Source: Microgenomates group bacterium GW2011_GWF2_46_18 (lineage in GTDB: Bacteria > Patescibacteriota > Microgenomatia > UBA1400 > UBA12108). From it: DNA of 64,000 nucleotides. This document shows positions 9,874 through 39,913 of this stretch, in pieces. Position 1 is the stretch's first letter; every line of letters begins with the position of its first letter. A model generated the notes under the pieces. The model worked only from the letters and a program-made list of their open reading frames with translations. It ran no database searches and had not been told where the DNA came from. Position numbers and translations under genes: made by a program. The stretch is taken from assembly GCA_001002415.1 (NCBI GenBank), contig LCMB01000004.1:13-64012 (forward strand), given 5' to 3'.

Positions 9874-10965
9874 ATGAAAATTGCTTTGGTTCACGATTAT
9901 TTAAACGAGGCAGGGGGAGCGGAGCGGGTCCTAAGGGTACTCTCTGAGATGTATCCAAAGGCGCCGATTTATGTGGCGTTTGCCAAACAGGGAACGGCTA
10001 AAAAGATGTTAGATGAGAGGGGTAAGAGGATAGTGGAAAGTTCGTGGGGGTGGTTACTCAAAATCGGCCGGATGTATAGCTACTTACGTTGTTGTTTGCC
10101 ATGGGTGTGGAAGAGTGTGGATTTGACGGCATATGATTTGGTGATCACCAGTTGCTCAGGATATATTGCCAGGGGATTTCGGGTCAAACCAGGAGCTAGG
10201 GTGGTAGCGTACTGTCATACACCCCCAAGATGGCTGTATGGGTATGACACACCGACCGGAGCTAACCGGCAGTGGTGGGGCAAAGCTTTTATGTGGGTGG
10301 TGGGACCATTTGTGCGCTACTTTGATTACCAGTCAGCTCAGCGGGTGAATACCTGGATCGCCAATAGCCGGGAAGTGGCTAAGCGAATCGAGAAGTTCTA
10401 CCGCCAGAAAGCCGAGGTAGTATACCCGCCAATCGAGATGCCAGAAGTTAGACGAGAGACGGTAGCTAAGCGAGGAGATTATTATTTGGTGGTAGCGAGA
10501 ATGGTGGGAGGGAAGGGGATTAGAGAGGCAATCGCGGGAGCGAGAAAAGCTGGAGTTGTACTAAAGATTGTCGGTGAAACGGTGGGGGCAGGAATTAGGA
10601 AAGAGGAATTAGAAAGTAGGAATGTAGAATATTTAGGGAGGGTGGAAGACAAAGAATTGGCTAAGCTTTATGCGGGAGCGAGGGGACTGGTGGCTTTATC
10701 GCGGGATGAAGACTTTGGGATGACAGTGGTGGAAGCAATGGCCATGGGGACTCCGGTACTAGCGTTTAACGGCGGGGGATACAAGGAAACGGTGGTACCA
10801 GGTAAGACGGGGATTTTGATTGAAGGAACAGACGCCAAGACGGTGGCGGAGGGAATTAGGCGGATGGAGCAAATTAAGTGGGAGCGAGAGAAAATAGGGC
10901 AGTGGGCGAAGAAGTTTAACCGAGCGAGGTTTGAAAAGGAGATCCGGGGGGTAGTCGGTGCCTGA
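9874..10965 (+). CDS. Glycosyltransferase, GT-B fold (GT4-like)
   Basis: 'MKIALVHDYL', plus a C-terminal E-x7-E region 'EDFGMTVVEAMAMGTPV'. It contains heptad array (a). Confidence 0.75.
   Translation: MKIALVHDYLNEAGGAERVLRVLSEMYPKAPIYVAFAKQGTAKKMLDERGKRIVESSWGWLLKIGRMYSYLRCCLPWVWKSVDLTAYDLVITSCSGYIARGFRVKPGARVVAYCHTPPRWLYGYDTPTGANRQWWGKAFMWVVGPFVRYFDYQSAQRVNTWIANSREVAKRIEKFYRQKAEVVYPPIEMPEVRRETVAKRGDYYLVVARMVGGKGIREAIAGARKAGVVLKIVGETVGAGIRKEELESRNVEYLGRVEDKELAKLYAGARGLVALSRDEDFGMTVVEAMAMGTPVLAFNGGGYKETVVPGKTGILIEGTDAKTVAEGIRRMEQIKWEREKIGQWAKKFNRARFEKEIRGVVGA
10591..10632 (+). repeat. GGAAnnA heptad array (a), 6 units, in-frame inside the glycosyltransferase
   Basis: GGAATTA GGAAAGA GGAATTA GAAAGTA GGAATGT AGAATAT, translated 'GIRKEELESRNVEY'. 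Confidence 0.85.
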
Positions 10966-11728
10966 ATTACCAGAGGTAGAGACGATAAGAAGACAGCTAG
11001 CGACTATTTTGGTCGGCAGGCGAGTAACGGGAATAGAAGTACGGGAGGAAAAGAGCTACCTTGGGCCAAAGCGCGTAGATCAAGTGATAACCAAGGTTGG
11101 GAGAGTAGGGAAGTACTTATATTTTGATTTTGCGGACGGGAGTATGTGGGAGATACATTTAAAAATGACGGGAAGGTTGATATGGGACAGAGCGGATTAC
11201 GAGAAGGCCAAACATACGCGGGTGGTAGTAGTAATGGAGGGGGGGAAATTATACTTTTGGGACACACGCAAGTTTGGTTATATCAGGGTGGTAAGCGAAC
11301 GGAAACAATTGGGTAAAGATCCGTGGGAGATGAGCGAAGCTGAACTTATGCGTAAATTACAAAAGACGGGTAGATCCGTAAAAGAAGCAATACTTGATCA
11401 AAGTTTGTTAGCAGGGGTGGGGAACATTTATGCTAATGATGGCTTGTGGGAGGCGAGGATAAATCCCAAGCAAAAAGCCAATACTTTGACGATCCCCCAA
11501 GTGAAAAAATTATTGTCAAGCTTACGCAGGGTAATGGAGCGAGGACTAGCTACGGGAGGAGCGAGTGACAACAGTTATGTGAACGCGAAAGGTGAGATGG
11601 GGAGTTACCAAAATGAATTTTTGGTATACGGGCGGACGGGAGAGCCATGCAACCGGTGCGGGACCAAACTAGAGAGGATTGTGGTTGGGGGGAGAGGGAC
11701 GTGGGTGTGCCAGAAGTGCCAATTGTGA
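10958..11728 (+). CDS. mutM: Formamidopyrimidine-DNA glycosylase
   Basis: Catalytic N-terminus '(M)PELPEVE', an H2TH region, and a C-terminal zinc finger 'CNRCGTKLERIVVGGRGTWVCQKCQ'. The GTG start overlaps the upstream gene's end. Confidence 0.9.
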   Translation: MPELPEVETIRRQLATILVGRRVTGIEVREEKSYLGPKRVDQVITKVGRVGKYLYFDFADGSMWEIHLKMTGRLIWDRADYEKAKHTRVVVVMEGGKLYFWDTRKFGYIRVVSERKQLGKDPWEMSEAELMRKLQKTGRSVKEAILDQSLLAGVGNIYANDGLWEARINPKQKANTLTIPQVKKLLSSLRRVMERGLATGGASDNSYVNAKGEMGSYQNEFLVYGRTGEPCNRCGTKLERIVVGGRGTWVCQKCQL

Positions 11729-11750
11729 GGTCGCTGTATAATAAGAGGGA

Positions 11751-12836
11751 ATGAAGTTAGAGAGAATACGTCTAGAGAATTTTCGCAGTTACGAAAAGCA
11801 GGAATATCGATTTGGAGAGCGAACCATTATCGTAGCTCCCAATGGGGCAGGGAAAACTAATTTACTAGAGGCAATTTATTTACTTCTTGCGGGAGAGAGT
11901 GAGCGGGCTAGTGTAACCGAAGAGATGATTACCTGGGAAAAACCAATTGCAACAGTTAATGCGGTGCTGGAAGTGAATGGGAATCAGGAATTAGGAATTA
12001 GGAATCAGGGAAGTGATTATATTGAATTGACAGTAATTCTCACGCGAGGGAGTTACATGGGCAAAGTGACCCCCAAGCGCAGGTATTTGGTCGACGGAGT
12101 CGCGCGGACCAAAGCCAAGTTTGTGGGGAAGTTACCGGTCACTCTCTTTCGCCCCGAGGATATGCGGTTAGTCGAGGGGTCGCCTCCTAGGAGACGGAAT
12201 TTTTTGGATGAGAGTTTGACCCAGGCACACCCAGAATATGCGCGAGCACTGACCGTATACGAAGCCAGTCTGCGCAGGCGCAACAAGCTACTGGATGCCA
12301 TCCGTGAGGGAGTGGCCAGGCGGGAACAATTGACTTATTGGGATCAGTCGGTCATTAAAAACGGCAATATTGTGAGTAATTTTCGCCGGGAGTTTTTACT
12401 GTATTTGTCGAGGGTGAGTACTAGTTTTGGCAAGTTTAAACTAGAGTATTTGGCATCGGAGGTATCACCCGAGCGACTAACACAATATGCCGAGGCAGAG
12501 GTGGCTGTCGGGTACACTCTGGTTGGGCCGCACAAGGATGATTTTAAGATTTTCCAGGAAGGGAAGGATTTGATGGTCTATGGAAGTAGGGGGGAACAGC
12601 GGCTAGGAGTGCTATTTATGAAGATGGCGGCGATGAAGTATGTGGAAGAGAAACTAAAAATCAAAAGCTTGTTACTGTTGGATGATATTTTTTCTGAGCT
12701 GGATCAACTGCACCGCGAAGAAGTGGTAGTCATGATGGAGGGGAGGCAGACCATCGTAACCAGTGCCGAGGAAGAGGCAACCAAGTTAGTTAAAGGAGCA
12801 GAGGTGGTGAGATTAACGAAAAATACTTTAGATTGA
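11751..12836 (+). CDS. recF: DNA replication/repair protein RecF
   Basis: 'LENFRSY', Walker A 'APNGAGKTNLLEA', the 'GSRGEQR' signature, and Walker B 'LLLLDD'. It contains heptad array (b). Confidence 0.9.
   Translation: MKLERIRLENFRSYEKQEYRFGERTIIVAPNGAGKTNLLEAIYLLLAGESERASVTEEMITWEKPIATVNAVLEVNGNQELGIRNQGSDYIELTVILTRGSYMGKVTPKRRYLVDGVARTKAKFVGKLPVTLFRPEDMRLVEGSPPRRRNFLDESLTQAHPEYARALTVYEASLRRRNKLLDAIREGVARREQLTYWDQSVIKNGNIVSNFRREFLLYLSRVSTSFGKFKLEYLASEVSPERLTQYAEAEVAVGYTLVGPHKDDFKIFQEGKDLMVYGSRGEQRLGVLFMKMAAMKYVEEKLKIKSLLLLDDIFSELDQLHREEVVVMMEGRQTIVTSAEEEATKLVKGAEVVRLTKNTLD
11980..12007 (+). repeat. GGAAnnA heptad array (b), 4 units, inside recF
   Basis: GGAATCA GGAATTA GGAATTA GGAATCA, translated 'NQELGIRNQ'. 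Confidence 0.85.
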
Positions 12837-16964: not shown

Positions 16965-18802
16965 AGAGGATGGCGGGGGTGATACTGCTACTAATCGGGC
17001 TGTGGCTGGGGGCAAACAAAAGTGTGAACGCGCTAGATTGTACACAGAACTCGGTAACTTGTTTGCAGTGGGATTCTGATAATGATGAATGTGGATCATC
17101 GAATGGAGATGTGGCAGCGTGTGTGGAATCGGGGACTAGCTGTGACTGGAGTTATAACCAAAGTTTGTTGGATTGTGGAATGTGTATGCCACATGGAGCA
17201 CAGTGTTATGACAAGGATATACCACTGCCGTCGGGAGCGACACCAGCCCCGACCTCAACCCCGGGAGTGGCATGCGGGGATAGTACTTTCCCAGCTTGTA
17301 ATGGGTCGTGTGCGGGATCAAATGTATGTAAGTCGATTTATGTGAGCAGTTCCTGTGAGTGCGGGCCTGCAACAGGTTGTGCTGATTATGTCCCGACCCC
17401 CAACATCCTGGCTACGGCGCGGCTTACCCCCACTTCTGCCCGATTTCGCTGGAGTCCAATTGATACCCAAAAGTACCCCTATGTAGAGCGGATTGCGTTG
17501 ATCGTGGAGGAGACTGCCGCCAATTTAAATACTTGTATGACAGCGGCTATTCGAGGTGATGCGAGCTCTGTTTGTAACGTTTACCAACCAAATTTGGCGG
17601 TGAGTGCCACTAGCTACACGGCCACCGGAGCATTGGTGGCGGGGACGGAGTATGAGGTGAGAGTAATATTTATTACCTTTGACCCTCCTGGACTACTACC
17701 AGTATGTATTAATAGTGATAGGATTGACTATTTGTCTTCGTGTGAACTAACACCAGACCCCACGACCATAGAGGTGGGGGAAACACAGTTGTTAACAACC
17801 AATCTGGTTGCAAATACTTGGTATGTGAGCTACACCCGCGCACCAACGGCGTACGCGACGGTGACTACCCCGGACAACGCATTGCCTTACCGGACTACGG
17901 TTACCGGAGTGGCGGATGGGACTACCCTGGTTACAGGGAATGTATATACATATGCCACCCCACCGGTGCTGGCCTGTAGTGATACGGCTACTGTGACAGT
18001 GGGTACAGTGGTAGTGTCAGCTAACCCATGGTGGCAGACCATCGGGGGGAGTATCCACACGCAAAGGACGACGGGGACGGTGCTACGGTCACGGCTTCCA
18101 GCCGGAGAGTATTTGATCAAACGGGTGACTGGGGGGACATCGGGATTGTTGTCATACGGAGGGGGGACGGTGGTGCTTGTGGGTGGGACGGTGTCACAGG
18201 ATGGGTGGAAGGCCAAGTCGCTGTACACAGGCAAAACCATGAATTATGCGTATTTTGCCAAGAATATGGGGGTGGCAACAAGCGGGCAAGCCAAGGATTG
18301 GGCGGGAGATGCGATGACCAAGCCAGCCTACAATGCCAATAAAGTGTTCTATTACCAAGATCCAGTAGGAACGGCCAGTTTGGCGGCGGTGTGGAATGTG
18401 GCTAATGGGCAAAAGTATGTCGTATTTGTGAATGGGGATTTGGAGATAGACCAAAATATCAATGTGGCTCCCGGAGGATTTTTGGCCTTTATTGTCTCGG
18501 GTGAGATTACAGTGGACCCAGCGGTAACTTATATGGAAGGACTATTTGTTTCGAACGGCAATTTTTCCACGATTTCCAAGTATGTGGCGGGGGTGACCAA
18601 TGATAGTCGATTACTGGTTGAGGGGAGTGTGATAACTTGGGGGTCGATAGATTTGAACCGAAATTTGGGGGATGCAGCTAATGCGACTCTTCCGGCTGAA
18701 CAAGTTACCTATAGACCAGATCTACTAACTAATATGCCAGATAGGATGAAGAGTTTTGCTCTCGAGTGGAAGGAAGTGCCGGCGGGGACTTTTGGGGAAT
18801 AG
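16961..18802 (+). CDS. Secreted surface protein with a Cys-rich N-terminal region and FN3-like and Ig-like (Big_2-like) segments
   Basis: Signal peptide 'MKRMAGVILLLIGLWLGANKSVNA', then a Cys-rich stretch. 'ARFRWSPI..TSYTATGALVAGTEYEVRV' is FN3-like, and 'TIEVGETQLLTTN..TVTGVADGTTLVTG' is Big_2-like. Confidence 0.6.
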   Translation: MKRMAGVILLLIGLWLGANKSVNALDCTQNSVTCLQWDSDNDECGSSNGDVAACVESGTSCDWSYNQSLLDCGMCMPHGAQCYDKDIPLPSGATPAPTSTPGVACGDSTFPACNGSCAGSNVCKSIYVSSSCECGPATGCADYVPTPNILATARLTPTSARFRWSPIDTQKYPYVERIALIVEETAANLNTCMTAAIRGDASSVCNVYQPNLAVSATSYTATGALVAGTEYEVRVIFITFDPPGLLPVCINSDRIDYLSSCELTPDPTTIEVGETQLLTTNLVANTWYVSYTRAPTAYATVTTPDNALPYRTTVTGVADGTTLVTGNVYTYATPPVLACSDTATVTVGTVVVSANPWWQTIGGSIHTQRTTGTVLRSRLPAGEYLIKRVTGGTSGLLSYGGGTVVLVGGTVSQDGWKAKSLYTGKTMNYAYFAKNMGVATSGQAKDWAGDAMTKPAYNANKVFYYQDPVGTASLAAVWNVANGQKYVVFVNGDLEIDQNINVAPGGFLAFIVSGEITVDPAVTYMEGLFVSNGNFSTISKYVAGVTNDSRLLVEGSVITWGSIDLNRNLGDAANATLPAEQVTYRPDLLTNMPDRMKSFALEWKEVPAGTFGE

Positions 18803-18836
18803 GAAATAGAAAATAGGAATTAGGAAGTAGGAATAG
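18802..18836 (+). repeat. GGAAnnA heptad array (c), 5 units, intergenic
   Basis: GGAAATA GAAAATA GGAATTA GGAAGTA GGAATAG. It starts at the stop codon of the 613-aa gene. Confidence 0.85.
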
Positions 18837-19205: not shown

Positions 19206-19233
19206 TAATTCCTAGTTCCTGTTTCCTAATTCC
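19206..19233 (-). repeat. GGAAnnA heptad array (d), 4 units, intergenic, minus orientation
   Basis: The + strand reads TAATTCC TAGTTCC TGTTTCC TAATTCC. This is sense with respect to the minus-strand fic/4HB operon. Confidence 0.85.
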
Positions 19234-21278: not shown

Positions 21279-23042
21279 ATGAAATGGAGTGAGCTGACAA
21301 GCGTATTTGCGCGGATTGAAGGGACATCTTTACGCAATACCAAGACCGAGATTTTGGCGGAACTTTTGCGGAGGGCAAGTTATTCAGAGGTAGATAAACT
21401 GGTGTATTTGGCACTTGGGGAGTTACGTCCCAAGTATGACAAACTTGAGTTTAATCTGGCAGAGAAGATGATTCTTAGGGCGATCGCTTTGGCGGCGGGG
21501 AAAACGATTAGTGAAGTGAGCCAGGAGTATAAACGAATCGGTGATTTGGGAGAGTTGGCGGGAATGATAGGAAAGAGGAAAGAGGAAAGAGGAATTAGGG
21601 AAGTGTATAGAGAATTGGAAAAGATTGCACAAGAGAGTGGAAAGGGGAGCCAGGAGAGAAAAATTGCGGGACTGGCAAAGTTGATCAAGGAGGTGGGAGG
21701 CGAGGGGGCAAAATATGTCGTACGAATAGTGGCGGGAAAGCTCAGGCTTGGGTTTAGTGATAAGACGGTATTGGATGCCATCAGTTATCTGGAAGCGGGA
21801 AGTAAGGAATATAGCGAAGCTTTGGATCGAGTCTACCAAGTTCGACCGGATGTGGGAGTATTGGTCAAAACAGTGAAGGAAAAGGGGGTGAAGGCAGCCA
21901 TGGGGGAGACTAGCGTAGTGGTTGGGACTCCGATCATGCCGGCGTTGGCCCAGCGACTCAAGACTGCCAAGGAGATGATTGAGAAGATGGGACGGGTGAT
22001 GGTCGAGAAAAAATTTGATGGGACAAGGGTGCAAATTCATTTTTCGCGAAGCGAAAATAAGGGAATTAGGAAACAGGAATTAGGAATTAGTCAGAACAGG
22101 ATGTTTGAGGAAGAGAAACCTAAGTTTTGGGTCAGGAGTTTTACCCGCAATTTGGATGAAAGTTCAGCGATGTTTCCTGAGTTGCAACAAATTGGGGAAC
22201 AGATCGCGGCCGATGAAGTAATCCTGGACTCGGAGGCGGTGGGGTATGAGCCTGCAACTGGCAAACTGGTCCCATTCCAGTTGACGATCACCCGCAAACG
22301 TAAACACGGGGTGGGAGAGGCCCAAAATGCCGTGCCCCTCCGGTTTTTTGTCTTTGACATTATGTATTTGAATGGAAAAAGTTTGATCCAGTTACCTTTG
22401 AGTGAACGCCGAAAGATTTTAGCGAGAGTGATAAAGAGGGGACAAGTGTTAGAGGTAGATGATTACATCGAGACGGATGACCCAAATCAGTTGCGGGAGT
22501 TTCACAAACAACAGTTAAGTTTGGGACTAGAGGGAGTACTGGTAAAACAGATCGATGGCGAGTATATGCCGGGGCGGACCGGCTTTAACTGGGTTAAGTT
22601 CAAGGAGGCGGAGGACTCGCGAGCTAAGCTTGCGGATACCTTGGATTTGGTGGTGATGGGATACTACCTTGGGAAGGGAAAACGCCGAGGATTTGGGTTG
22701 GGAGCATTTTTGGTGGGAGTTAGGGAGGGAGAGGAAATTGTGACAATTGCCAAAGTAGGAACGGGGATTAGTGATAAACAATTTGGGGAATTGTACGAGA
22801 GATTAAAAAAGATTGAAGTTAAACGAGCAATACCAGAATATAAGGTGGCAAAAAATTTAATACCGGACGTGTGGGTAGAACCAGAAATTGTGGTCGAAGT
22901 GGCGGCAGATGAGATCACCAAATCCCCCGCGCACAGTGCGGGTTATGCCTTGAGATTCCCGAGGCTAGTTAGATTCCGCGAGGATAAAAGTGTCAAGGAA
23001 ATCACGACTTTGGATGAAGTTACAGCCATGATTGGTATATAG
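21279..23042 (+). CDS. lig: ATP-dependent DNA ligase (archaeal/eukaryotic-type)
   Basis: Adenylation motif I 'EKKFDGTR', then 'LDSEAV', 'FVFDIMYLNG', 'EGVLVK' and 'WVKFK'. It carries two heptad arrays, (e) and (f). Confidence 0.85.
   Translation: MKWSELTSVFARIEGTSLRNTKTEILAELLRRASYSEVDKLVYLALGELRPKYDKLEFNLAEKMILRAIALAAGKTISEVSQEYKRIGDLGELAGMIGKRKEERGIREVYRELEKIAQESGKGSQERKIAGLAKLIKEVGGEGAKYVVRIVAGKLRLGFSDKTVLDAISYLEAGSKEYSEALDRVYQVRPDVGVLVKTVKEKGVKAAMGETSVVVGTPIMPALAQRLKTAKEMIEKMGRVMVEKKFDGTRVQIHFSRSENKGIRKQELGISQNRMFEEEKPKFWVRSFTRNLDESSAMFPELQQIGEQIAADEVILDSEAVGYEPATGKLVPFQLTITRKRKHGVGEAQNAVPLRFFVFDIMYLNGKSLIQLPLSERRKILARVIKRGQVLEVDDYIETDDPNQLREFHKQQLSLGLEGVLVKQIDGEYMPGRTGFNWVKFKEAEDSRAKLADTLDLVVMGYYLGKGKRRGFGLGAFLVGVREGEEIVTIAKVGTGISDKQFGELYERLKKIEVKRAIPEYKVAKNLIPDVWVEPEIVVEVAADEITKSPAHSAGYALRFPRLVRFREDKSVKEITTLDEVTAMIGI
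21561..21597 (+). repeat. GGAAnnA heptad array (e), 5 units, inside the DNA ligase
   Basis: GGAATGA-ta-GGAAAGA GGAAAGA GGAAAGA GGAATTA, translated 'GMIGKRKEERGIRE'. Confidence 0.8.
22062..22089 (+). repeat. GGAAnnA heptad array (f), 4 units, inside the DNA ligase
   Basis: GGAATTA GGAAACA GGAATTA GGAATTA, translated 'GIRKQELGIS'. Confidence 0.85.
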
Positions 23043-25201: not shown

Positions 25202-25720
25202 ATGAGTATGTATGGACTGATTGTGGGGGGGGCGGTAGCGGTCTGGTGGAGCTGGGTAGAAAGAATCGAGCCGAGAGCAAAGAAAGTAGTCCCGTGGGTG
25301 ATTGTGGCGGCCTTAATTGGGGCAAGAGTCTACCACGTGATAGATCAGTGGGACTATTACGCGCAGGACTGGGGGCGCATCTTACAGGTTTGGAACGGAG
25401 GATTATCGATTTGGGGGGCTGTCGGGGCGGGACTATTGGTCTTATGGCTAGGAATTAGGAAAGAGGAATTAGAAAATAGGCGAGCAATAATCGCAGCTTT
25501 TATTACACCGCTACCTCTTGCACAGGCGATAGGGCGATTGGCGAATGGCTTCAATGGGGAGTTTACCAATCTGGTAGGGGGGATTCCCTGGTGGGCGATG
25601 GAAGCTATTTTGGATTTGGCGTTGTTTGGAATAGTATGGCTCGTCGAGAAAAAGTGGCGGATTTGGGTGTACGCTGGCGGGTATTTGCTCATTCGACTAG
25701 TATTACAGCCTTACAGGTAG
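25202..25720 (+). CDS. lgt: Prolipoprotein diacylglyceryl transferase (short form)
   Basis: 'GGLSIWGAVGAG' and 'AIGRLANGFNGEF' match the Lgt signature GR.GNF.NgE. ATG 25202 lies 8 nt after a TATACAAT box. It contains heptad array (g). Confidence 0.65.
   Translation: MSMYGLIVGGAVAVWWSWVERIEPRAKKVVPWVIVAALIGARVYHVIDQWDYYAQDWGRILQVWNGGLSIWGAVGAGLLVLWLGIRKEELENRRAIIAAFITPLPLAQAIGRLANGFNGEFTNLVGGIPWWAMEAILDLALFGIVWLVEKKWRIWVYAGGYLLIRLVLQPYR
25451..25478 (+). repeat. GGAAnnA heptad array (g), 4 units, inside lgt
   Basis: GGAATTA GGAAAGA GGAATTA GAAAATA, translated 'GIRKEELENR'. Confidence 0.85.
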
Positions 25721-29730: not shown

Positions 29731-31046
29731 AGATCAGAGATGTATTGGGACTGAATTCGCGGAATCATTTATATACTTCCCGCTATAACGGCCGGGAAGG
29801 GAAAAGAATTGCCAATTCCAAATTGTTAACCAAAGAGACCTTGCGGAAGGCGGATGTACGGGTGCCACAAACTTATGCTCGGATCGGGAATATCGAGCAA
29901 TTGGAGAGATTTGACTGGTTATCACTGCCTACAGATTTTGTAGTAAAACCCAATAATGGACTTGGTGGACAAGGAATTATCGTGATTGAGAAACAGGGTG
30001 AATATGCGGGAGAATGGGTAAGTTCGCAGGGAGAAATAGTGACGGTAGCAGATCTGAAACTGCAGGTAGCGGATATTTTGCAAGGCCGGTATTCAATGGA
30101 CGATTTGCCTGACACGGCCTATATCGAAGAGCGAGTAGCGGTCCACCCGGTATTTGAGAAATATAGTTATCACGGGACGCCCGACATTCGAGTGATTGTC
30201 TTTAACGGAGTACCGATCATGAGTTACGCCCGATTACCAACTGAGGAATCGGGGGGAAGGGCAAATTTGTTCCAGGGAGCGGCGGCAATGGGAATCGATA
30301 TCGCCACAGGGATTACGACCTACGGAGTTCATCACGGAACACCAATTGAGTTTTTCCCGGGGACGAGACGGAAATTGCGAGGAGTGCAGATCCCGGAGTG
30401 GGAGAGTATTTTGGAGACGGCGATTTTGGCGAGCCGGGCGATTGGGCTAGGTTATATGGCCGCGGATATAGTCCTGCAACCAGTGTTGAGAAAACAGGAA
30501 TTAGGAATGAGGAAACAGGAAGTAGAAACTGTGCCGATGATTTTGGAAGTGAATGCTCAGCCAGGACTGAAAATTCAGATTGCTAACCGAGCGGGACTCA
30601 AGGAGAGGCTGACGAGGGTAAAGGGGCTAAAAATCGTGTCGGTAAAACATGGGATTAGGGTGGGTCAGGCTTTATTTGCTGATCCCAAGTTGGCGGAAGC
30701 GGGGATGGGGAGAAAGACGGTGGGGGCGACTGAAGAAATTGAGATTTGGGGATTGGGGGGAGAACGCGAAACAGTTAAAGCCAAGATCGATACCGGAGCT
30801 AACATGAGCAGTATTGATCGAGAACTAGCGAAAAAATTGGGACTACTGGACCCGGATAATCATTTGTATGAAGATTTTTTCTATAGTTCGCTGGGGAGGA
30901 ATAAGCGTCAGATTGTGGGAATCAAGTATTTGATGGCGGGGGTGAAAGTGAAGGGGATGGTGTCGGTGGCGGACCGGAGCCGGATGAAACACAAATTTTT
31001 AGTGGGGAAACGCGATTTAGGACGGTTTGCGGTGGTAGTGGGGTAG
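29727..31046 (+). CDS. Alpha-L-glutamate-ligase-related ATP-grasp enzyme fused to a retropepsin-like ('ATP-dependent zinc protease' family) domain
   Basis: The N-terminus 'LGLNSRNHLYTSRYN..KLLTKE' and 'VVKPNNGLGGQGI' indicate ATP-grasp. The C-terminus 'VKAKIDTGANMSSID' carries a DTG aspartyl-protease-like motif. It contains heptad array (h). Confidence 0.65.
   Translation: MKIRDVLGLNSRNHLYTSRYNGREGKRIANSKLLTKETLRKADVRVPQTYARIGNIEQLERFDWLSLPTDFVVKPNNGLGGQGIIVIEKQGEYAGEWVSSQGEIVTVADLKLQVADILQGRYSMDDLPDTAYIEERVAVHPVFEKYSYHGTPDIRVIVFNGVPIMSYARLPTEESGGRANLFQGAAAMGIDIATGITTYGVHHGTPIEFFPGTRRKLRGVQIPEWESILETAILASRAIGLGYMAADIVLQPVLRKQELGMRKQEVETVPMILEVNAQPGLKIQIANRAGLKERLTRVKGLKIVSVKHGIRVGQALFADPKLAEAGMGRKTVGATEEIEIWGLGGERETVKAKIDTGANMSSIDRELAKKLGLLDPDNHLYEDFFYSSLGRNKRQIVGIKYLMAGVKVKGMVSVADRSRMKHKFLVGKRDLGRFAVVVG
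30490..30524 (+). repeat. GGAAnnA heptad array (h), 5 units, inside the ATP-grasp gene
   Basis: GAAAACA GGAATTA GGAATGA GGAAACA GGAAGTA, translated 'RKQELGMRKQEVE'. Confidence 0.85.
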
Positions 31047-31049
31047 CAC

Positions 31050-32177
31050 ATGCCAAAAGGGAAAAAAGTGGCGGTTGGAATAAGCGGAGGAGTGGATTCA
31101 GCTGTTGCGGCGGCTTTGCTGGTAGCAGAAGGATATGAGGTTACAGGGGTATTTATTGAGGCGTATAACGAGCCGGGATGTCGAACTGACCAGGATAGAC
31201 AAGACGCCTTGCAGGTGGCAATGCGTCTAGGAGTTAGATTCCAGACATTAGATGTGAGGAAACAGTATCGAGAGAAAGTGGTCCAATATTTTATTGATGA
31301 ATATAAGGCGGGTCGGACGCCAAACCCAGATATTGTGTGTAATGCCGAGATCAAGTTTGGGCTGTTTTATGATTGGACAAGAGGGAAGGAGTTTGATTAC
31401 TTGGCGACGGGACATTATGCGAGAATTTCTCCGGAAGGGTATCTACAGCGACCGAGAGATTTAGGGAAGGACCAGAGTTATTTTTTGTGGAGGGTAAACC
31501 CGAGGAAATTAGATAATTTGTTGTTTCCGTTGGGAGAGATGACCAAACAAGAAGTGAGAGCGAAAGCAAAGGAATTAGGATTACCCAATGCGGATAAGCC
31601 AGATTCAATGGGGGTGTGTATGATGGGAGAATTGAATTTGAAAGAGTTTTTGCGGGGAAAATTGGGAGTAGAGCCGGGAGAGGTAGTCTGGAAGGGGAGA
31701 GTTGTAGGGAAGCACCTAGGATTATGGTTTAGTACGATTGGTCAACGGGGGGGATGGGAAATAAACTCAAAAATCAAAACTCAAAAATCAAAACTAGATC
31801 TGGCGAATTTGCCAGGGCTATATGTAATTGGGAAGAATATGAGAAAAAATCAGTTAATTGTAGGGACGAGAGAGGAGGCATATTCCACTGCTTTTAAAAT
31901 TATGAATGTAGAATTGAGAATGAAGAAAGAATTGATTAAAGATTTAGTAAAGAAAAATCAGTTGTATGTGAGAGTGCGTAATTTGGGAGAACTATATTTG
32001 GTGGAGGAATTAGGAATTAGGAAAGAGGAAATAGGAATTAGGATACAGAAATCAGTATTTGCGATAGCCGAAGGACAAAGTGCCGTGCTCTATGCCAGGA
32101 CAGGCAAAGAGGGAGAAGAAGTCATAGTTGGAGGCGGGATGATAGGGTCTTGCAAGAACGAGAAAAATCGTTCATAG
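31050..32177 (+). CDS. mnmA: tRNA 2-thiouridine synthase MnmA
   Basis: PP-loop 'VAVGISGGVDSAVAA', 'NPDIVCN' and 'GHYAR'. It carries heptad array (i) and a separate 14-nt tandem duplication. Confidence 0.85.
   Translation: MPKGKKVAVGISGGVDSAVAAALLVAEGYEVTGVFIEAYNEPGCRTDQDRQDALQVAMRLGVRFQTLDVRKQYREKVVQYFIDEYKAGRTPNPDIVCNAEIKFGLFYDWTRGKEFDYLATGHYARISPEGYLQRPRDLGKDQSYFLWRVNPRKLDNLLFPLGEMTKQEVRAKAKELGLPNADKPDSMGVCMMGELNLKEFLRGKLGVEPGEVVWKGRVVGKHLGLWFSTIGQRGGWEINSKIKTQKSKLDLANLPGLYVIGKNMRKNQLIVGTREEAYSTAFKIMNVELRMKKELIKDLVKKNQLYVRVRNLGELYLVEELGIRKEEIGIRIQKSVFAIAEGQSAVLYARTGKEGEEVIVGGGMIGSCKNEKNRS
31766..31793 (+). repeat. Perfect tandem duplication (CTCAAAAATCAAAA)x2 inside mnmA
   Basis: 31766-31779 equals 31780-31793. 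It can also be read as four heptads, nTCAAAA. The translation is 'SKIKTQKSK'. Confidence 0.8.
32006..32047 (+). repeat. GGAAnnA heptad array (i), 6 units, inside mnmA
   Basis: GGAATTA GGAATTA GGAAAGA GGAAATA GGAATTA GGATACA, translated 'EELGIRKEEIGIRIQ'. Confidence 0.85.
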
Positions 32178-32208
32178 TGAAGTCACTACAGTTGTGGGGG
32201 GGGTATTT

Positions 32209-34055: not shown

Positions 34056-34237
34056 AAACTAGACGTAAACAAATTAATGAACAAGGGGTGAGACGGAACC
34101 AGTTTTTGGGGGCGCTGCTCATTGCCTTGGGACTCGGGGCTTTGATCGTGGTAGTTCGTTACTTTATTATTTCTACCCAGGTAGAAACCTCGATTTACGA
34201 GATCCAGCCGAGCGATTTGATTCCGGGTGCTAGATAG
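34052..34237 (+). CDS. Small single-TM protein
   Basis: ATGA overlap with paralog 2. 61 aa with one hydrophobic helix, 'FLGALLIALGLGALIVVV'. Confidence 0.4.
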   Translation: MKTRRKQINEQGVRRNQFLGALLIALGLGALIVVVRYFIISTQVETSIYEIQPSDLIPGAR

Positions 34238-34278
34238 GGGATAGGAATTAGAAAGTAGGAATTAGGAAACAGGAAATC
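34237..34278 (+). repeat. GGAAnnA heptad array (j), 6 units, intergenic upstream of rpsA
   Basis: GGGGATA GGAATTA GAAAGTA GGAATTA GGAAACA GGAAATC. It begins at the last base of the upstream stop codon. Confidence 0.85.
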
Positions 34279-34349
34279 AGAGTTGGTGGTTGTGATTTTG
34301 GGGGTCTCGAGGTAAAATAAGGGAACAAAAGAAGGGAGATAGATTGGTT

Positions 34350-35528
34350 ATGGTAAAAGCTAAAGTTACTAAGAAAGTAAAGGTGGTGGCAAAAGTGCCA
34401 AAGGCGCCAAAGAAAGAGAAGACGGTTAAGAAGGAAGTGAAGATAACAAAAGCTGTGAAAGAACCGGTGACGATGGAAGAGTTGCTCTCAAGTGCAGGAT
34501 ATAAATTGTCGGTTCCCAAAAAAGGCGAGACGATCACGGGATTAGTCACAATGGTGAACCGGAAGATGGTATTGGTCGATATCGGAGCCAAGACTGAGGG
34601 GTTGGTAGCGGAAAAAGAATACGAATACGCGCGTGAATTTATCGAGACTTTGAAGGTAGGGGATGAGATTGATGTGTATATTGCATCTGATGAAAACGAG
34701 CGGGGACAGATTTTACTGTCACTGCGCCGAGCGATGATGACCAAGTTGTGGGATATGCTCGAAGGGTATTTAAAAAATGAAACAGAAGTACAGGTCAAAA
34801 CCTACGAGCTTAATCGTGGGGGGATGATTGTCAAATGGCAGGGACTAAGAGGATTTATCCCCAGTTCCCAATTTGGGTCTAGTTATGCCGGGAATTTGCA
34901 GGGATTAGTAGGAAAGATGATTGCGGTTAAGCCCATCGAGGTGGATCGAGAAAAGAACCGTTTAATTTTCTCGGAAAAGCATGTTTCCGAAGCCATGCAA
35001 ATGGTTCAGCGGGAGAATGCTCTTAAGGCAGTGAAGGTAGGGGATACTTTGGAAGGGAAGGTAACAGGAGTCTTAAATTTTGGCGCGTTTGTGGCGGTCA
35101 CTGTTTCGGGAGTAATAGTTGAGGGATTGGTCCATATTTCAGAGATTTCCTGGGAGAAAGTGGAGGATATCCACAAATATCTCAAGGTAGGAGATGCCGT
35201 AAAAGTTAAGGTGATGGGGGTAGAGCAGGGGACCGGGAAACTGAACCTCTCAATCAAACAGCTGCAAGCTGACCCATGGAGTATGGCGGCAGAGAAGTAC
35301 CCAGCCGGGACAACGATTAAGGGTAAGATTTCCCGGAGCGCGCCATTTGGCACGTTTGTGAACTTCGAGCCAGGAGTAGATGGACTCATCCATGTCTCTC
35401 GGATGGGTAGTTTTGGGGAGTTAACACCTGGAGAAGTGATCGAGGTGTTGGTTGAGAATGTGGACCCAGAACACCGCAGAATGAGTTTGGGACCAGTACT
35501 TAAAGAGGTGCCGGTTGGATACAAATAG
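34350..35528 (+). CDS. rpsA: 30S ribosomal protein S1 (four S1 domains, Lys-rich N-terminus)
   Basis: Repeated S1 OB-fold motifs ('G..V.G.V......G..V.....EGL.H.SE'). ATG 34350 follows GAAGGGAG. Confidence 0.75.
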   Translation: MVKAKVTKKVKVVAKVPKAPKKEKTVKKEVKITKAVKEPVTMEELLSSAGYKLSVPKKGETITGLVTMVNRKMVLVDIGAKTEGLVAEKEYEYAREFIETLKVGDEIDVYIASDENERGQILLSLRRAMMTKLWDMLEGYLKNETEVQVKTYELNRGGMIVKWQGLRGFIPSSQFGSSYAGNLQGLVGKMIAVKPIEVDREKNRLIFSEKHVSEAMQMVQRENALKAVKVGDTLEGKVTGVLNFGAFVAVTVSGVIVEGLVHISEISWEKVEDIHKYLKVGDAVKVKVMGVEQGTGKLNLSIKQLQADPWSMAAEKYPAGTTIKGKISRSAPFGTFVNFEPGVDGLIHVSRMGSFGELTPGEVIEVLVENVDPEHRRMSLGPVLKEVPVGYK

Positions 35529-35562
35529 GAATTAGGAATTAGAAAATAGGAAATAGGGAGTA
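35528..35562 (+). repeat. GGAAnnA heptad array (k), 5 units, intergenic after rpsA
   Basis: GGAATTA GGAATTA GAAAATA GGAAATA GGGAGTA. It begins at the last base of the rpsA stop. Its last unit doubles as the Shine-Dalgarno for the 47-aa ORF. Confidence 0.85.
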
Positions 35563-35567: not shown

Positions 35568-35711
35568 ATGAGTAAAACAAAGATGATAGTGAAGGATGAT
35601 CAGATCTTAGTGGACTTGGAGTGGATTTTTGAGGAAATCCGCGGAGCGAATGGGGATTGGAAGGCAGTCGAAGAGCAATTGAGAGGATTATTGTCGGCGG
35701 TAGAGGAATAG
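35568..35711 (+). CDS. Small hypothetical protein (47 aa)
   Basis: Not in the ORF track. Its ATG lies 7 nt after GGGAG, the last unit of heptad array (k). Its stop is 1 nt before the next ATG. Confidence 0.35.
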   Translation: MSKTKMIVKDDQILVDLEWIFEEIRGANGDWKAVEEQLRGLLSAVEE

Positions 35712-36357: not shown

Positions 36358-36377
36358 CCATTTGCTAGAATAGCCTC

Positions 36378-38271: not shown

Positions 38272-39003
38272 ATGTCTTTCCAGGGTTTAGGCAGGGAATT
38301 TTCAAAAAATCTGAGTTTTTTCGAAAGTGGGTTGGGAGGAGTGTTCCCGGCGATCGAACGGGGGAAGGCGTTAGAGATTGCCAGACAGGAAATAGCGGAA
38401 GGAAGGCCGGCTTATTTGAAAGCAAAGAAAGATTCTCAGGCTTTAATGGTATATGTGGAACCACGGAGGGATGGGTTGGTTTGGGCAAGCGTGGTACCGG
38501 CGTTACATTTTGTAACATCGCATGGACTAGGGAGGCATCAGGGGACAACAGATCGAGTTGAGTCGTTTGCAGAAATATTAAGACAGGGATTTCGCTCACC
38601 AACTGGAGAGAATAATGCTTTGTTACTAACACCGGGATATGGAGAAGAAAAGTGGAAATCTGGTTATCCTCGAGAAAAGATCAATGGATATTTTGGTGGA
38701 TGGTATATGACGAAACAAAATGCCCAGGACAGAGGGGCGAACAAGGGAGATTCACTCCGAGTGGTGCTTTGGTCGGGATTCTACGCGGAGAATAGGGTAA
38801 AGGTACAAAAAGGGGGGATACAAAAAAATTCAACTTGTGTAGATGGGACAAGTATTGGTTATGTAGAGGGGGTGGTCGTGACGGCACCAGGATCAGATTG
38901 GAGACAAAGAATTGAGTATTACCGTAATTTATATCGGGAGCAGAGACTACACGCACCGCTGGAAATTTTTGATGTGCAGGGACAACGGGTGAGAGTAGAA
39001 TAA
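38272..39003 (+). CDS. Hypothetical protein
   Basis: A 243-aa ORF with a GAAGAGGAG Shine-Dalgarno upstream. No family recognised. Confidence 0.5.
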   Translation: MSFQGLGREFSKNLSFFESGLGGVFPAIERGKALEIARQEIAEGRPAYLKAKKDSQALMVYVEPRRDGLVWASVVPALHFVTSHGLGRHQGTTDRVESFAEILRQGFRSPTGENNALLLTPGYGEEKWKSGYPREKINGYFGGWYMTKQNAQDRGANKGDSLRVVLWSGFYAENRVKVQKGGIQKNSTCVDGTSIGYVEGVVVTAPGSDWRQRIEYYRNLYREQRLHAPLEIFDVQGQRVRVE

Positions 39004-39007
39004 ATTT

Positions 39008-39913
39008 ATGCAGATATTTAGCGGAAGTAGTAATTCGGGATTAGCCAAGCAAGTGGCGGAATTAATGGGAAGTAAAATGGGTGAGGTAGAAATTTCGCAG
39101 TTTGCGAATGGGGAAATTAGGGTATGGGTAAAAGAGAAGAAGTTGGCAAAGCAAGTGGTGGTAGTACAGTCTCTGTCGAGCCCAACCAATGAACATGTGA
39201 TTGAGTTTTGTCTTTTATGTGATGCCTTACACCGGGAGGGAGCCAGGGAGATCACAGCCGTCATCCCCTGGATGGGGTACAGTAAACAGGACAAGGTGTT
39301 TCGGCCGGGAGAGCCACTCTCGGCTAAAGTGATGGCACAGGTATTACAGACTGCCAAACTAGAAAAAATAATTACCTTTGATTTACATAACCGGGCAACC
39401 CTGGGATTTTTTGAGGTGCCGATTGTTGAATTATCAGCCAAACCCCTATTGATCGATTATTTCCGGAAAAAGGTGGGGGAGCAGACGGTGGTGGTGGCGC
39501 CAGACGCGGGGAGTGCCAAGGCCAGTACCTCGTTTGCCCAGTCCTTGGGATTGTCGGTTGTGTATGTCGACAAAAGACGGGATTTGGAGAGTGGGAAAGT
39601 CACGATCATGGGGATGAGCCAGAGTGTAGCTGGAAGGGAAGTAATTCTGGTGGATGATAATGTTTTTACCGGTGCGACCCTTTTATCAACCGCGAAAGAA
39701 CTAAAAAAAGCTGGAGCCAAATCGATCAGAGTGGGATTAACCCATCATTTGTACGTGCCAGGGGTACAAGAAAAACTCGAGCAGAGTGAGATAAATGAGA
39801 TCGTGGTCACAGACACGATTCAAGGAAACAGGAAACAGGAATTAGGAATTAGGAAAGAGAAATTGAAAGTGCTGAGTGTGGCGCCTTTGATAGTTGACGA
39901 ACTAGCGAAGTAG
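39008..39913 (+). CDS. prs: Ribose-phosphate pyrophosphokinase
   Basis: 'MQIFSGSSN..LA', 'VVAPDAGSAKA', and the PRPP-binding loop 'VILVDDNVFTGATL'. It contains heptad array (l) near the C-terminus. Confidence 0.85.
   Translation: MQIFSGSSNSGLAKQVAELMGSKMGEVEISQFANGEIRVWVKEKKLAKQVVVVQSLSSPTNEHVIEFCLLCDALHREGAREITAVIPWMGYSKQDKVFRPGEPLSAKVMAQVLQTAKLEKIITFDLHNRATLGFFEVPIVELSAKPLLIDYFRKKVGEQTVVVAPDAGSAKASTSFAQSLGLSVVYVDKRRDLESGKVTIMGMSQSVAGREVILVDDNVFTGATLLSTAKELKKAGAKSIRVGLTHHLYVPGVQEKLEQSEINEIVVTDTIQGNRKQELGIRKEKLKVLSVAPLIVDELAK
39824..39858 (+). repeat. GGAAnnA heptad array (l), 5 units, inside prs
   Basis: GGAAACA GGAAACA GGAATTA GGAATTA GGAAAGA, translated 'GNRKQELGIRKE'. Confidence 0.85.

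What the first reader, a model, noticed from the sequence alone, without database searches (positions are those of the whole stretch)
10591..39858. A dispersed GGAAnnA heptad-array family has 12 copies in 30 kb, 8 of them in-frame inside conserved genes and encoding 'ELGIRKEE'
Arrays of 4-6 tandem heptads with consensus GGAA-n-n-A occur at 10591, 11980, 18802, 19206 (minus orientation), 21561, 22062, 25451, 30490, 32006, 34237, 35528 and 39824. Typical units are GGAATTA, GGAAAGA and GGAAACA. Eight copies lie inside otherwise ordinary genes: the glycosyltransferase, recF, the DNA ligase (two copies), lgt, the ATP-grasp gene, mnmA and prs. Because 3 heptads equal 7 codons, all of them translate to variants of the same peptide, such as GIRKEELE, QELGIRNQ, GIRKQELGIS, QELGMRKQE, ELGIRKEEIGIR and RKQELGIRKE. 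In prs and in the ligase the segment falls where family members normally have a short loop. In prs it lies between '..TDTI' and 'LSVAPLI'. In the ligase it lies between the KxDG strand '..QIH' and '..SFTRNL'. This is consistent with insertion. Three intergenic copies begin exactly on a stop codon (18802, 34237, 35528). Where the orientation can be judged, every copy is purine-rich on the local mRNA sense strand, including the single minus-orientation copy, which sits in a minus-strand operon. That strand consistency argues for an RNA-level constraint or function. One possibility is tandem AGGA Shine-Dalgarno-like or GGA-type protein-binding sites. It may also be a repeat that tolerates in-frame insertion, as reported for Rickettsia palindromic elements and cyanobacterial heptamer STRRs. 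None of the copies falls in the giant gene or in the first 10 kb.
Basis: partly seen in the sequence, partly recalled or inferred. Interest (0 to 1): 0.7.

Follow-up and report, generated by a model that had tools for sequence, protein, structure and literature searches.

The report
Dispersed stop-codon heptamer repeats inside genes
A tiny groundwater bacterium carries a family of short 7-base tandem repeats scattered through its genes and gene junctions; they are real, turn over fast and are a new variant of a known but poorly understood kind of bacterial repeat, not a demonstrated RNA signal.

Summary
Twelve arrays of 4-7 GGAAnnA heptads lie at 10591-39858: 42 pattern matches against 0.58 expected. 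Only period 7 is enriched. The source is Microgenomates group bacterium GW2011_GWC1_46_16 (CPR). In this lineage one DNA strand is G-rich along the whole chromosome.

The consensus unit is really GGAAnTA, which gives TAG at each unit junction. In the eight coding arrays the junction triplet is never TAG when in frame (0/13; CAG, GAG or GTA instead). It is TAG 20/25 times out of frame and 15/20 times in non-coding arrays. So 'ELGIRKE' is a by-product of 3 x 7 = 21 bases plus removal of in-frame stops.

All four non-coding arrays start on the upstream gene's stop codon. One supplies the stops of both convergent genes.

In a relative that differs by about 1-4% over most of the shared region, arrays are gained, lost or replaced by unrelated heptad families at the same sites. 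In deeper relatives the same protein loops hold other repeat families. This argues against a GGAA-specific RNA function.

Closest known: TAACTGA, GGGAATC and STRR heptamer repeats. How the arrays spread is unknown.

The parts
10591..10625 (+). GGAAnnA array, 5 units, in frame in the GT4 glycosyltransferase (9874-10965), aa 240-251, GIRKEELESRNV
   Evidence: identical in strains L124 and L125
11980..12007 (+). GGAAnnA array, 4 units, in frame in recF (11751-12836), GNQELGIRNQ; a clean 11-12-aa insertion
   Evidence: gap in the L123 RecF and in PDB 5z67 RecF
18795..18836 (+). Array of 6 units between convergent genes. TAG at 18800-18802 is the stop of 16961-18802 (+). TTA at 18820-18822 is the TAA stop of the four-helix-bundle gene 18820-19191 (-), whose last residues SIPTS are read from the array's reverse complement.
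19206..19233 (-). The only minus-orientation array, 4 units. It begins on the TAG stop (19233-19235) of the 65-aa ORF 19233-19430 (-) and ends 14 nt before the ATG of 18820-19191 (-).
21570..21597 (+). Array, 4 units plus a degenerate unit, at ligase site 1 (aa 98-107, GKRKEERGIR), an inter-helix linker. An orthologous GGAAnnA array is present in L121 and L122; AGATTCY heptads occupy the site in L123.
22062..22089 (+). Array, 4 units, at ligase site 2 (aa 262-271, GIRKQELGIS), after motif I KxDG..QIH. It lies inside a 30-aa lineage-specific segment with pLDDT below 50.
25451..25478 (+). Array, 4 units, in frame in lgt (25109-25720), GIRKEELENR. Also present in L121 lgt; absent in L126, L127 and L123.
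30490..30524 (+). Array, 5 units, in frame in the RimK-like ATP-grasp gene (29727-31046), RKQELGMRKQEV. Conserved in L126 and L127; about 4 aa longer than the unrelated loop in L123.
31763..31795 (+). Second heptad family, AAAMTCA (reverse complement TGAKTTT), 4.7 units, in frame in mnmA, in a low-confidence loop around aa 238-249. Identical in L126, L127 and L128.
31904..31931 (+). Degenerate AGAATnn heptads in mnmA. L126 has YAGAATT units at this place. The site lies at the left edge of a divergent mosaic block.
32006..32054 (+). Longest GGAAnnA array, 7 units, in frame in mnmA (31050-32177), EELGIRKEEIGIRIQKS. Modelled as a beta-hairpin (strands 315-324 and 327-337, pLDDT 86-93). Net gain is about 3-5 aa over orthologues.
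34244..34278 (+). Non-coding array, 5 units, preceded by a degenerate unit that starts on the TAG stop (34235-34237) of ORF 34052-34237; upstream of the S1 gene. L126 has TAGAYGn heptads at the same place.
35528..35562 (+). Non-coding array, 5 units. It starts on the TAG stop of the S1 gene (35526-35528). Its last unit, GGGAGTA, lies 5 nt before the ATG at 35568. Absent in L126, which is 20 nt shorter here and has a TAA stop.
39824..39858 (+). Array, 5 units, in frame in prs (39008-39913), GNRKQELGIRKE, in the hypervariable loop after TDTI. L126 has an AAAGTCA-family array of the same 48-nt length here.

Best explanation
The arrays are one genome's family of dispersed short tandem heptanucleotide repeats. 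This is the same kind of element as the TAACTGA, GGGAATC and STRR heptamer repeats of other bacteria. The consensus unit is GGAAnTA, equivalent to TAGGAAn, so an unmodified array puts a TAG stop in all three frames within 21 bases.

The arrays arise and are replaced at the DNA level as blocks of 4-7 units. The process is fast compared with point substitution. Its mechanism is not known. I infer slippage together with ectopic templated repair or short-patch recombination.

Selection then decides where arrays persist, and there are two permissive places.
1. The 3' end of a gene or a short intercistronic spacer. The first in-frame TAG becomes the gene's stop, and the rest of the array fills the spacer up to the next start codon.
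2. Variable loops or linkers of proteins. This requires a total length that keeps the frame, and every third unit must have lost its TAG (TAG to CAG or GAG).

Because 3 x 7 = 21 bases = 7 codons, every frame then reads a circular permutation of one peptide, ELGIRK(E/Q). The shared peptide is therefore a by-product, not a designed motif.

Shown here: family membership, the period, stop purging, stop-codon adjacency, turnover and recurrent site use. Inferred: the way arrays spread, and the absence of a motif-specific function.
For: 1. The family is real and specific to period 7. All two-unit matches lie inside the arrays, and sizes run only from 4 to 7 units. There is therefore no continuum of proto-repeats, which fits insertion of blocks.
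2. Stop purging. The in-frame junction triplet is TAG in 0 of 13 cases, against 20 of 25 out of frame and 15 of 20 in non-coding arrays (Fisher p = 1.6e-6).
3. All four non-coding arrays start on the upstream stop codon, and one supplies both stops of a convergent gene pair. The same architecture is seen in L126 after trx, in L121 after the MFS gene, and in an Uhrbacteria contig.
4. Non-coding DNA is about 6% of 10.6-39.9 kb but holds 4 of the 12 arrays.
5. Turnover. Against L126, whose background divergence is about 1-4%, an array is absent at 35528, an extra array is present at window position 27090, and a different family of equal length sits at prs. Within the species (99.9% identity) the arrays are identical.
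6. Recurrent sites with different units. Ligase sites 1 and 2, the prs loop and the mnmA loops carry many unrelated repeat-derived peptides across orthologues.
7. The arrays have no secondary structure and no predicted G-quadruplex.
8. Published heptamer families behave in the same way: stops in all frames, overlap with stop codons, and residence in variable protein loops (PMC4679880; PMC4692102).
Against: - No insertion mechanism, target-site duplication or enzyme was identified.
- Some arrays are old and conserved. Ligase site 1 and lgt share GGAAnnA arrays with relatives at about 67% protein identity, which is more than neutral DNA should retain.
- All 12 arrays in the window are co-oriented with transcription, including the single minus-strand copy.
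- The arrays avoid the 20-kb minus-strand gene and about 17 kb on the left. About 5-6 would be expected in each under a uniform rate.
- The prs 'swap' keeps exactly the same length and extends into adjacent native codons. It may therefore be a short recombination import rather than a new array event.
- The mnmA array encodes a structured hairpin in the model, so at least that copy now has a protein role.
Confidence: 0.6

Rival explanations
1. The arrays act in cis on RNA. They would be unstructured purine-rich tracts with an AGGA every 7 nt, serving as Shine-Dalgarno-like or single-strand RNA-binding-protein platforms (S1, cold-shock proteins). Between cistrons they would stop ribosomes in any frame and help re-initiation at the next gene. 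Inside genes they would cause pausing.
For: - 12 of 12 arrays are purine-rich on the sense strand.
- MFE is 0 (-0.2 for one array) and, for most arrays, predicted pairing is lower than in the flanks.
- The genome uses GGAGG/AGGA Shine-Dalgarno sites, and 'TAGGA' is common at gene junctions.
- Two arrays end 5 and 14 nt before a start codon.
- Most heptad families seen in this lineage carry a stop codon in one orientation.
- Similar roles have been proposed for the TAACTGA repeats (PMC4679880).
Against: - The same sites in relatives hold units with no AGGA (AGATGCC, AAAGTCA, TAGAYGn).
- Arrays come and go between genomes whose background divergence is about 1-4%.
- Orientation is confounded with gene strand and with the chromosome-wide G-rich strand (PMC7143001).
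- GGAATTA arrays are antisense to real genes in other bacteria.
- Close syntenic relatives L249 and L250 have almost no heptad arrays.
Confidence: 0.2
2. The selected feature is the peptide. ELGIRK(E/Q) would be a shared motif, for binding, localisation or modification, placed on many housekeeping proteins.
For: - The same peptide family occurs in eight proteins.
- Peptide-level conservation of the arrays at ligase site 1 and in lgt in relatives at about 67% identity.
- The array forms a structured hairpin in the MnmA model.
Against: - Four arrays are non-coding, with TAG in all frames.
- The register of the peptide differs between genes, and units vary.
- Orthologous loops carry unrelated peptides or nothing.
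- The pattern of in-frame TAG loss shows that the DNA unit came first.
Confidence: 0.05
3. The arrays are contingency loci. Gain or loss of a 7-nt unit would switch genes on and off by frameshift (phase variation) or would drive programmed frameshifting.
For: - A unit length that is not a multiple of 3 is the classic basis of phase variation.
- The arrays sit in coding regions and just upstream of start codons.
Against: - No copy-number difference appears in any array among independent assemblies of the species (P0001-P0004, seen on 43 contigs; L124, L125, L128).
- The hosts are essential single-copy genes (prs, ligase, mnmA).
- Units within an array are heterogeneous, which suppresses slippage.
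Confidence: 0.03
4. A dedicated templated system, for example a reverse transcriptase with a short RNA template or a site-directed recombinase, actively writes heptad blocks into preferred sites. Stop modules and protein loops would then be diversified on purpose.
For: - Block size is always 4 units or more, with no dimers.
- The same sites are reused by different families.
- A replacement of exactly equal length at prs.
- Edges of divergent mosaic blocks coincide with arrays.
- Heptad density differs strongly between related genomes.
Against: - No candidate enzyme was found in the window. The Pfam and NCBIfam scans of about 20 ORFs show none, and the bAvd-like four-helix-bundle gene has no reverse transcriptase next to it.
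- The prs case can be explained by short-patch recombination.
- The hot spots can be explained by selection alone, since they are permissive loops.
Confidence: 0.1

Closest known systems
TAACTGA heptamer direct repeats of marine Beggiatoaceae, some cyanobacteria and Bacteroidetes (MacGregor 2015, PMC4679880)
   Same: - Tandem 7-nt units dispersed at many loci.
- The forward orientation gives stops in all three frames.
- Arrays overlap the upstream gene's stop codon and lie just before the next start codon.
- Occasional in-frame copies sit in variable surface loops of conserved proteins (RNA polymerase beta').
   Different: - The unit sequence differs.
- There, in-frame copies are in the reverse, stop-free orientation and are rare. 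Here 8 of 12 are coding, in the forward orientation, with the in-frame TAG mutated away.
- The host lineage differs (CPR Microgenomates).
- Several families coexist here and replace each other at the same sites.
GGGAATC (Xanthomonas) and GGGGA(C/T)T (Nostoc) G-rich heptamer repeats (Rehm et al. 2015, PMC4692102)
   Same: - A very similar unit (GGGAATC against GGAATCA/GGAATTA).
- Dispersed over the genome, with a preference for about 4 units.
[quoted passage not shown]
   Different: - Those repeats have GGG tracts and form G-quadruplexes in vitro. Here the tracts are GG, and no quadruplex is predicted.
- Those repeats are under-represented in coding sequence.
Cyanobacterial STRR heptanucleotide repeats, and the long simple sequence repeats with heptamer excess described by Mrazek and co-workers (as cited in PMC4692102 and PMC4679880)
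   Same: - Genome-specific families of tandem heptamers.
- Function and mode of spread are unknown.
- Polymerase slippage with a 7-nt footprint has been proposed.
   Different: - Mostly intergenic, with long arrays.
- Not reported as in-frame residents of housekeeping genes with stop purging. This point rests on my own knowledge and on the papers read.
Rickettsia palindromic elements (RPE)
   Same: A selfish repeat that survives as an in-frame insertion in conserved proteins.
   Different: RPEs are palindromic elements of about 100-150 bp. The arrays here are 28-49 nt, non-palindromic and tandem.
Borg tandem repeats that create disordered regions in proteins (PMC9879509)
   Same: Rapidly evolving tandem repeats, both genic and intergenic, that add hydrophilic or disordered segments to proteins. 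Abundance is genome-specific.
   Different: Borg genic units are multiples of 3 and are nearly all unique to their locus. Here the unit is 7 nt and the same family recurs at many loci.

Membership tests
Dispersed tandem heptanucleotide repeats (LSSR / STRR / TAACTGA type) | Head-to-tail units of exactly 7 nt, three or more per array | tested here: met
   only period 7 is enriched
Dispersed tandem heptanucleotide repeats (LSSR / STRR / TAACTGA type) | The same unit family at many separate loci of one genome, far above chance | tested here: met
   12 loci; 42 matches against 0.58 expected; 30 against 0.38 expected
Dispersed tandem heptanucleotide repeats (LSSR / STRR / TAACTGA type) | Over-represented in non-coding DNA, typically between co-directional genes | tested here: inconclusive
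   By count, 8 of 12 are coding. By density, non-coding DNA (about 6% of the region) holds 4 of 12 arrays, roughly 5-fold enrichment. Only 64 kb was examined.
TAACTGA-type stop-bearing heptamers | The forward unit carries a stop codon, so an array stops all three frames; arrays overlap the upstream stop and precede a start codon | tested here: met
   The junction is TAG in 15 of 20 non-coding units. All 4 non-coding arrays start on a stop codon. Two end 5 nt and 14 nt before an ATG.
TAACTGA-type / STRR1-3 / GGGAATC families in the strict sense | The published unit sequence | tested here: not met
   The unit is GGAAnTA. It resembles GGGAATC but is not identical.
G-quadruplex-forming heptamer repeats | Four or more G-tracts able to form a stable quadruplex | tested here: not met
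   The tracts are GG only. ViennaRNA with the quadruplex model predicts none; MFE is 0.
Rickettsia palindromic elements / REP-like elements | Palindromic element able to fold into a hairpin | tested here: not met
   No self-complementarity; MFE 0 to -0.2 kcal/mol
Phase-variable simple sequence repeats (contingency loci) | Unit-number variation between closely related strains | tested here: not met
   Arrays are identical in L124, L125 and L128 and in ligase variants P0001-P0004
Diversity-generating retroelement variable repeats | Template repeat plus reverse transcriptase; adenine-specific differences | not tested
   Only a bAvd-like four-helix-bundle gene was seen. No reverse transcriptase was found among the ORFs scanned. 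No template repeat was searched for.

The most novel reading that the evidence does not exclude
Heptad blocks are actively written into a limited set of hot-spot sites (gene ends and protein loops) by a dedicated templated or recombinational mechanism in some CPR lineages. They would then be a genome-wide system that installs frame-independent stop modules and rapidly diversifies loops of housekeeping proteins, with arrays also serving as recombination breakpoints.
Probability: 0.12. Interest if true: 0.85.

Novelty: new variant of a known kind. Interest (0 to 1): 0.55.

Why it matters
Heptamer tandem repeats are over-represented in many bacterial genomes, yet their origin and role have stayed unexplained since the cyanobacterial STRRs were described.

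This lineage offers an unusually clean natural experiment.
- The genomes are compact and have almost no spacer DNA, so most arrays must live inside genes.
- Selection leaves a clear signature there: every in-frame TAG is converted to CAG or GAG.
- Close relatives, at about 1-4% background divergence, already differ by gain, loss and family replacement at identical sites.

The mode of spread therefore becomes testable by comparative genomics of existing CPR metagenome assemblies.

There is also a practical point. Shared peptides such as ELGIRKE in unrelated CPR proteins are repeat by-products. They should not be read as domains or motifs. They will also disturb alignments, phylogenies and gene calls, because stop codons are supplied by the repeats.

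Tried and rejected
1. Rfam and tRNA scans of the window found nothing.
They returned mostly unrelated organisms: cyanobacteria with GGAAGAA units, Selenomonadales, and rumen and termite-gut metagenomes. They gave no genome-wide census of the source genome. They did show that the unit is widespread and can lie antisense to genes.
3. Extending the window to the right failed, because the product of 63359-63946 is not on record.
4. L128 seemed to show a split ligase at site 1. This is a scaffold gap of Ns joining a different allele, not a frameshift.
5. The G-quadruplex and hairpin ideas were rejected.
6. A Y1 transposase (PF01797) sits next to the syntenic region in L249 and L250. It is absent from the window, and those two genomes have almost no heptad arrays, so it does not track the repeats.
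7. A search for a target-site duplication around the L126-specific array at window position 27090 gave nothing convincing.
8. The AGATNCN family of L123 has no significant copies in the window.
9. Literature searches for heptamer repeats in CPR found no prior description.

Full report
**What is there**

The three-unit pattern GGAAnnA x3, with up to 2 mismatches, matches 42 times in the window against 0.58 expected from dinucleotide-preserving shuffles. Eleven are on the + strand and one (19206-19233) is on the - strand.

A period scan finds 8 strict arrays at period 7 and none at periods 4-6, 8 or 10-12. All 30 exact two-unit matches lie inside the 12 arrays, so there are no isolated dimers or proto-repeats.

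The same scan shows a second family, AAAMTCA, at 31763-31795, and degenerate AGAATnn heptads at 31904-31931. Both are in mnmA.

**Context**

The ligase is 100% identical to a protein of 'Microgenomates group bacterium GW2011_GWC1_46_16'.

The + strand has 30.5% G and 16.2% C. GC skew is +0.2 to +0.4 over the whole window, including the 20-kb gene on the minus strand. The same chromosome-wide strand disparity has been published for the Microgenomates order UBA1400 (PMC7143001).

The genome is very compact. The typical spacer between genes is roughly 15 nt, and TAG is the commonest stop codon (20 of 45).

Eight arrays are in frame in GT4, recF, the ATP-dependent ligase (two arrays), lgt, a RimK-like ATP-grasp gene, mnmA and prs.

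**The key regularity**

A pure (GGAATTA)n array has TAG at every unit junction, and therefore a stop in every frame within 21 nt.

| Position of the junction triplet | TAG | Other |
|---|---|---|
| Coding arrays, in frame | 0 of 13 | 7 CAG, 5 GAG, 1 GTA |
| Coding arrays, out of frame | 20 of 25 | 5 |
| Non-coding arrays | 15 of 20 | 5 |

The in-frame against out-of-frame contrast gives Fisher p = 1.6e-6.

The DNA unit came first. The peptide ELGIRK(E/Q) follows from 3 x 7 = 21 nt plus stop purging.

**Non-coding arrays**

All four begin on the stop codon of the upstream gene, read in the array's own orientation.

- 18795: its TAG at 18800-18802 ends the + gene. Its TTA at 18820-18822 is the TAA stop of the convergent four-helix-bundle gene, whose last residues SIPTS are read from the array's reverse complement.
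- 19206 (-): starts on the TAG of a conserved 65-aa ORF and ends 14 nt before the next ATG.
- 34244: follows the TAG of ORF 34052-34237.
- 35528: starts on the TAG of the S1 gene, and its last unit GGGAGTA lies 5 nt before an ATG.

The same stop-array-start layout is seen elsewhere:

- in L126, after trx;
- in L121, where a TAGTACT array runs from the MFS gene's stop to the next gene's start;
- in an Uhrbacteria contig.

**Insertion or replacement**

- recF: a clean 11-12-residue insertion relative to L123 and to PDB RecF.
- Ligase site 2: lies in a 30-residue segment that archaeal ligases and some orthologues lack, and that is disordered in the model (pLDDT below 50).
- Ligase site 1: an inter-helix linker that is variable in all orthologues.
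- prs: a loop after TDT[IV] that ranges from roughly 5 to 30 residues across 120 orthologues. PDB homologues are only 3-4 residues shorter than the window protein.
- lgt and the ATP-grasp gene: the array takes the place of an unrelated segment of similar length in L123.
- mnmA: the 17 array-encoded residues align with, and in the AlphaFold model form, a confident beta-hairpin of the C-terminal barrel (pLDDT 86-93). The net gain is about 3-5 residues.

'Surface loop insertion' is therefore right for some copies and too simple for others.

**Relatives**

Syntenic loci from relatives at about 67-70% ligase identity (L121, L122, L123) have the same extreme skew and 1.4-1.8 heptad arrays per 10 kb.

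- L121 and L122 keep a GGAAnnA array at ligase site 1. L121 also keeps one in lgt.
- L123 has AGATTCT/AGATTCC heptads at site 1 and (AGATGCC)4 at site 2. AGATTCC is the reverse complement of GGAATCT.
- L123 has its own insertion, RSQIPDVR, elsewhere in recF.

Across 120 ligase orthologues both sites are filled with recurrent repeat-derived peptide families, such as ELGIRKQ, DSRFQI.D, KFSNSQ, SQKFRSSPKIAQRSELG and TQSHSDTV, or are empty. Some of these families come from 8-nt units.

Two other syntenic relatives, L249 and L250, have almost no heptad arrays.

**Turnover**

L126 and L127 are close relatives. Most 300-nt bins differ from the window by 0-5%. Mosaic blocks of 10-28% divergence lie at 25.4-26.6 kb, 31.7-34.4 kb and beyond 41.6 kb.

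In the low-divergence background:

- the 35528 array is absent from L126;
- L126 has a GGAAnnA array after the trx stop, where the window has a 2-nt spacer;
- the prs site holds an AAAGTCA-family array of exactly the same 48-nt span.

At 34244 L126 has TAGAYGn heptads. The lgt array is missing from L126, within a diverged patch of about 100 nt. The ATP-grasp array and the AAAMTCA array are conserved.

Within the species (99.9% identity: L124, L125, L128; ligase variants from many assemblies) the arrays are identical, so there is no sign of phase variation.

The prs difference extends into neighbouring native codons. It may therefore be a short recombination import rather than a new array event.

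**Tests of the RNA idea**

The arrays have no secondary structure and no predicted G-quadruplex, and most are predicted to be less paired than their flanks. The genome uses GGAGG/AGGA Shine-Dalgarno sites. A role as an unstructured AGGA-bearing platform is therefore possible.

Four points count against a GGAA-specific function.

- The same sites in relatives carry units without AGGA.
- Arrays are gained and lost over very short evolutionary distances.
- Orientation is confounded with gene strand and with the G-rich strand.
- In other bacteria GGAATTA arrays lie antisense to real cobalamin-biosynthesis genes (L163), or antisense between + strand genes (L132).

The sense bias inside genes can also be explained at the protein level. 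The sense frames give hydrophilic ELGIRKE. The reverse complement gives TAA stops and peptides of the F/L/P/S type.

**What remains unexplained**

- How the blocks spread is unknown.
- Most heptad families seen in this lineage contain a stop codon: TAG-GAAn, TAG-AATT, TAG-TACT, TAG-AYGn, YAG-ATTC, and TGA-KTTT in reverse. The reason is unknown.
- Some arrays are conserved over deep divergence.
- The arrays are clumped between 10.6 and 39.9 kb.
- The arrays are absent from the giant minus-strand gene.

**Comparison with what is known**

The closest described systems are the TAACTGA heptamer repeats (PMC4679880) and the GGGAATC / GGGGAYT repeats (PMC4692102). Both are dispersed and favour about 4 units, or stops in all frames. 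Both overlap stop codons and occasionally sit in variable protein loops.

The Borg tandem repeats (PMC9879509) are a looser parallel: fast-evolving repeats that create disordered protein segments, but with units divisible by three.

I found no description of heptamer families in CPR bacteria.

What is new here:

- most copies are forward-oriented and in frame in housekeeping genes;
- the stop-purging signature;
- several families coexist;
- the same sites are reused by different families.

**Verdict**

The arrays are real and non-random. They are best read as a dispersed stop-bearing heptamer repeat family filtered by selection (confidence 0.6). They are a new variant of a known kind, and interest is moderate to good (0.55).

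Noticed in passing
window 1-64000: Extreme strand asymmetry: G 30.5% against C 16.2% on the + strand, and GC skew of +0.2 to +0.4 everywhere, even across the minus-strand giant gene. It matches the whole-chromosome disparity reported for UBA1400 Microgenomates (PMC7143001). Relatives L121-L123 and L249-L251 share it (skew 0.2-0.32).
   Followed up: partly
window 43305-63305 (-): A single 6666-aa ORF on the minus strand with no heptad array in either orientation, although about 5-6 would be expected at the density seen in + strand genes. The protein itself was not analysed.
   Followed up: no
window 25408-26607, 31708-34407, 41608-42145 compared with L126: Divergence from the close relative L126 is mosaic: about 1-4% background with blocks of 10-28%. 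Three block edges fall within about 50 nt of heptad arrays (25451, 31904, 34244). The arrays may therefore mark recombination breakpoints. The sample is small.
   Followed up: partly
L252 3253-3270 (ligase of P0054); also P0060, P0075, P0079 and mnmA P0231: The peptide PACAGR is encoded by a perfect 18-nt palindrome, CCTGCCTGCGCAGGCAGG, inserted in frame inside an AAATTCTC octamer array at ligase site 1. This recalls the small dispersed repeats that insert into heptamer arrays in Nostoc. That comparison rests on my own knowledge of Elhai et al. 2008.
   Followed up: partly
L128 around 3890-3970; P0063, P0078, P0090 ligases; P0187, P0231 mnmA: Relatives carry an 8-nt repeat family, ACAGTGAC/ACAGTCTC, giving TQSHSDTV-type peptides with an 8-residue period in the same ligase and mnmA loops. 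The loop-colonising repeats are therefore not only heptamers. The apparent split ligase in L128 is a scaffold gap (Ns) joining such an allele.
   Followed up: partly
L043 7647-7674 (Magasanikiibacteriota) and L056 3251-3278 (Uhrbacteria): Other CPR phyla show the same two situations. (GGAACAA)4 is in frame in a class I aminoacyl-tRNA synthetase-like gene (peptide SRKEQGTRNKEQG). A GGAATTA array supplies a gene's TAG stop and ends 8 nt before the next ATG.
   Followed up: partly
window 18820-19191 (-) and 19427-20476 (-): A four-helix-bundle protein (TIGR02436, 23S rRNA intervening-sequence protein / bAvd-like) lies next to a Fic/DOC protein with a DeoR HTH domain. The Fic gene sits upstream of the ligase in all the syntenic relatives; the four-helix-bundle gene was called next to it only in L121, L122 and L128. 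No reverse transcriptase was seen nearby.
   Followed up: no
window 11720-11751, 28820-28849, 36350-36378: TATAAT-like hexamers lie only about 7-10 nt upstream of several ATG start codons (recF: tgtataataagaggga-ATG; 28849: tgtataatacgtggt-ATG). This suggests very short leaders or leaderless transcripts.
   Followed up: no
window 25072-25720: The lgt ORF is short (203 aa from a TTG start; the family profiles match only its first ~160 residues, corresponding to the N-terminal half of 250-300-residue Lgt models) and overlaps another frame's ORF (25072-25458) that ends at the array. Relatives call lgt at 169-210 aa, so the short form seems typical of the lineage.
   Followed up: no
window 35713-36357: A protein matching the cadmium carbonic anhydrase repeat (PF18484, E = 3.5e-20), unusual for a CPR bacterium. 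It is preceded by a 47-aa ORF (35568-35711) that is conserved in L126.
   Followed up: no
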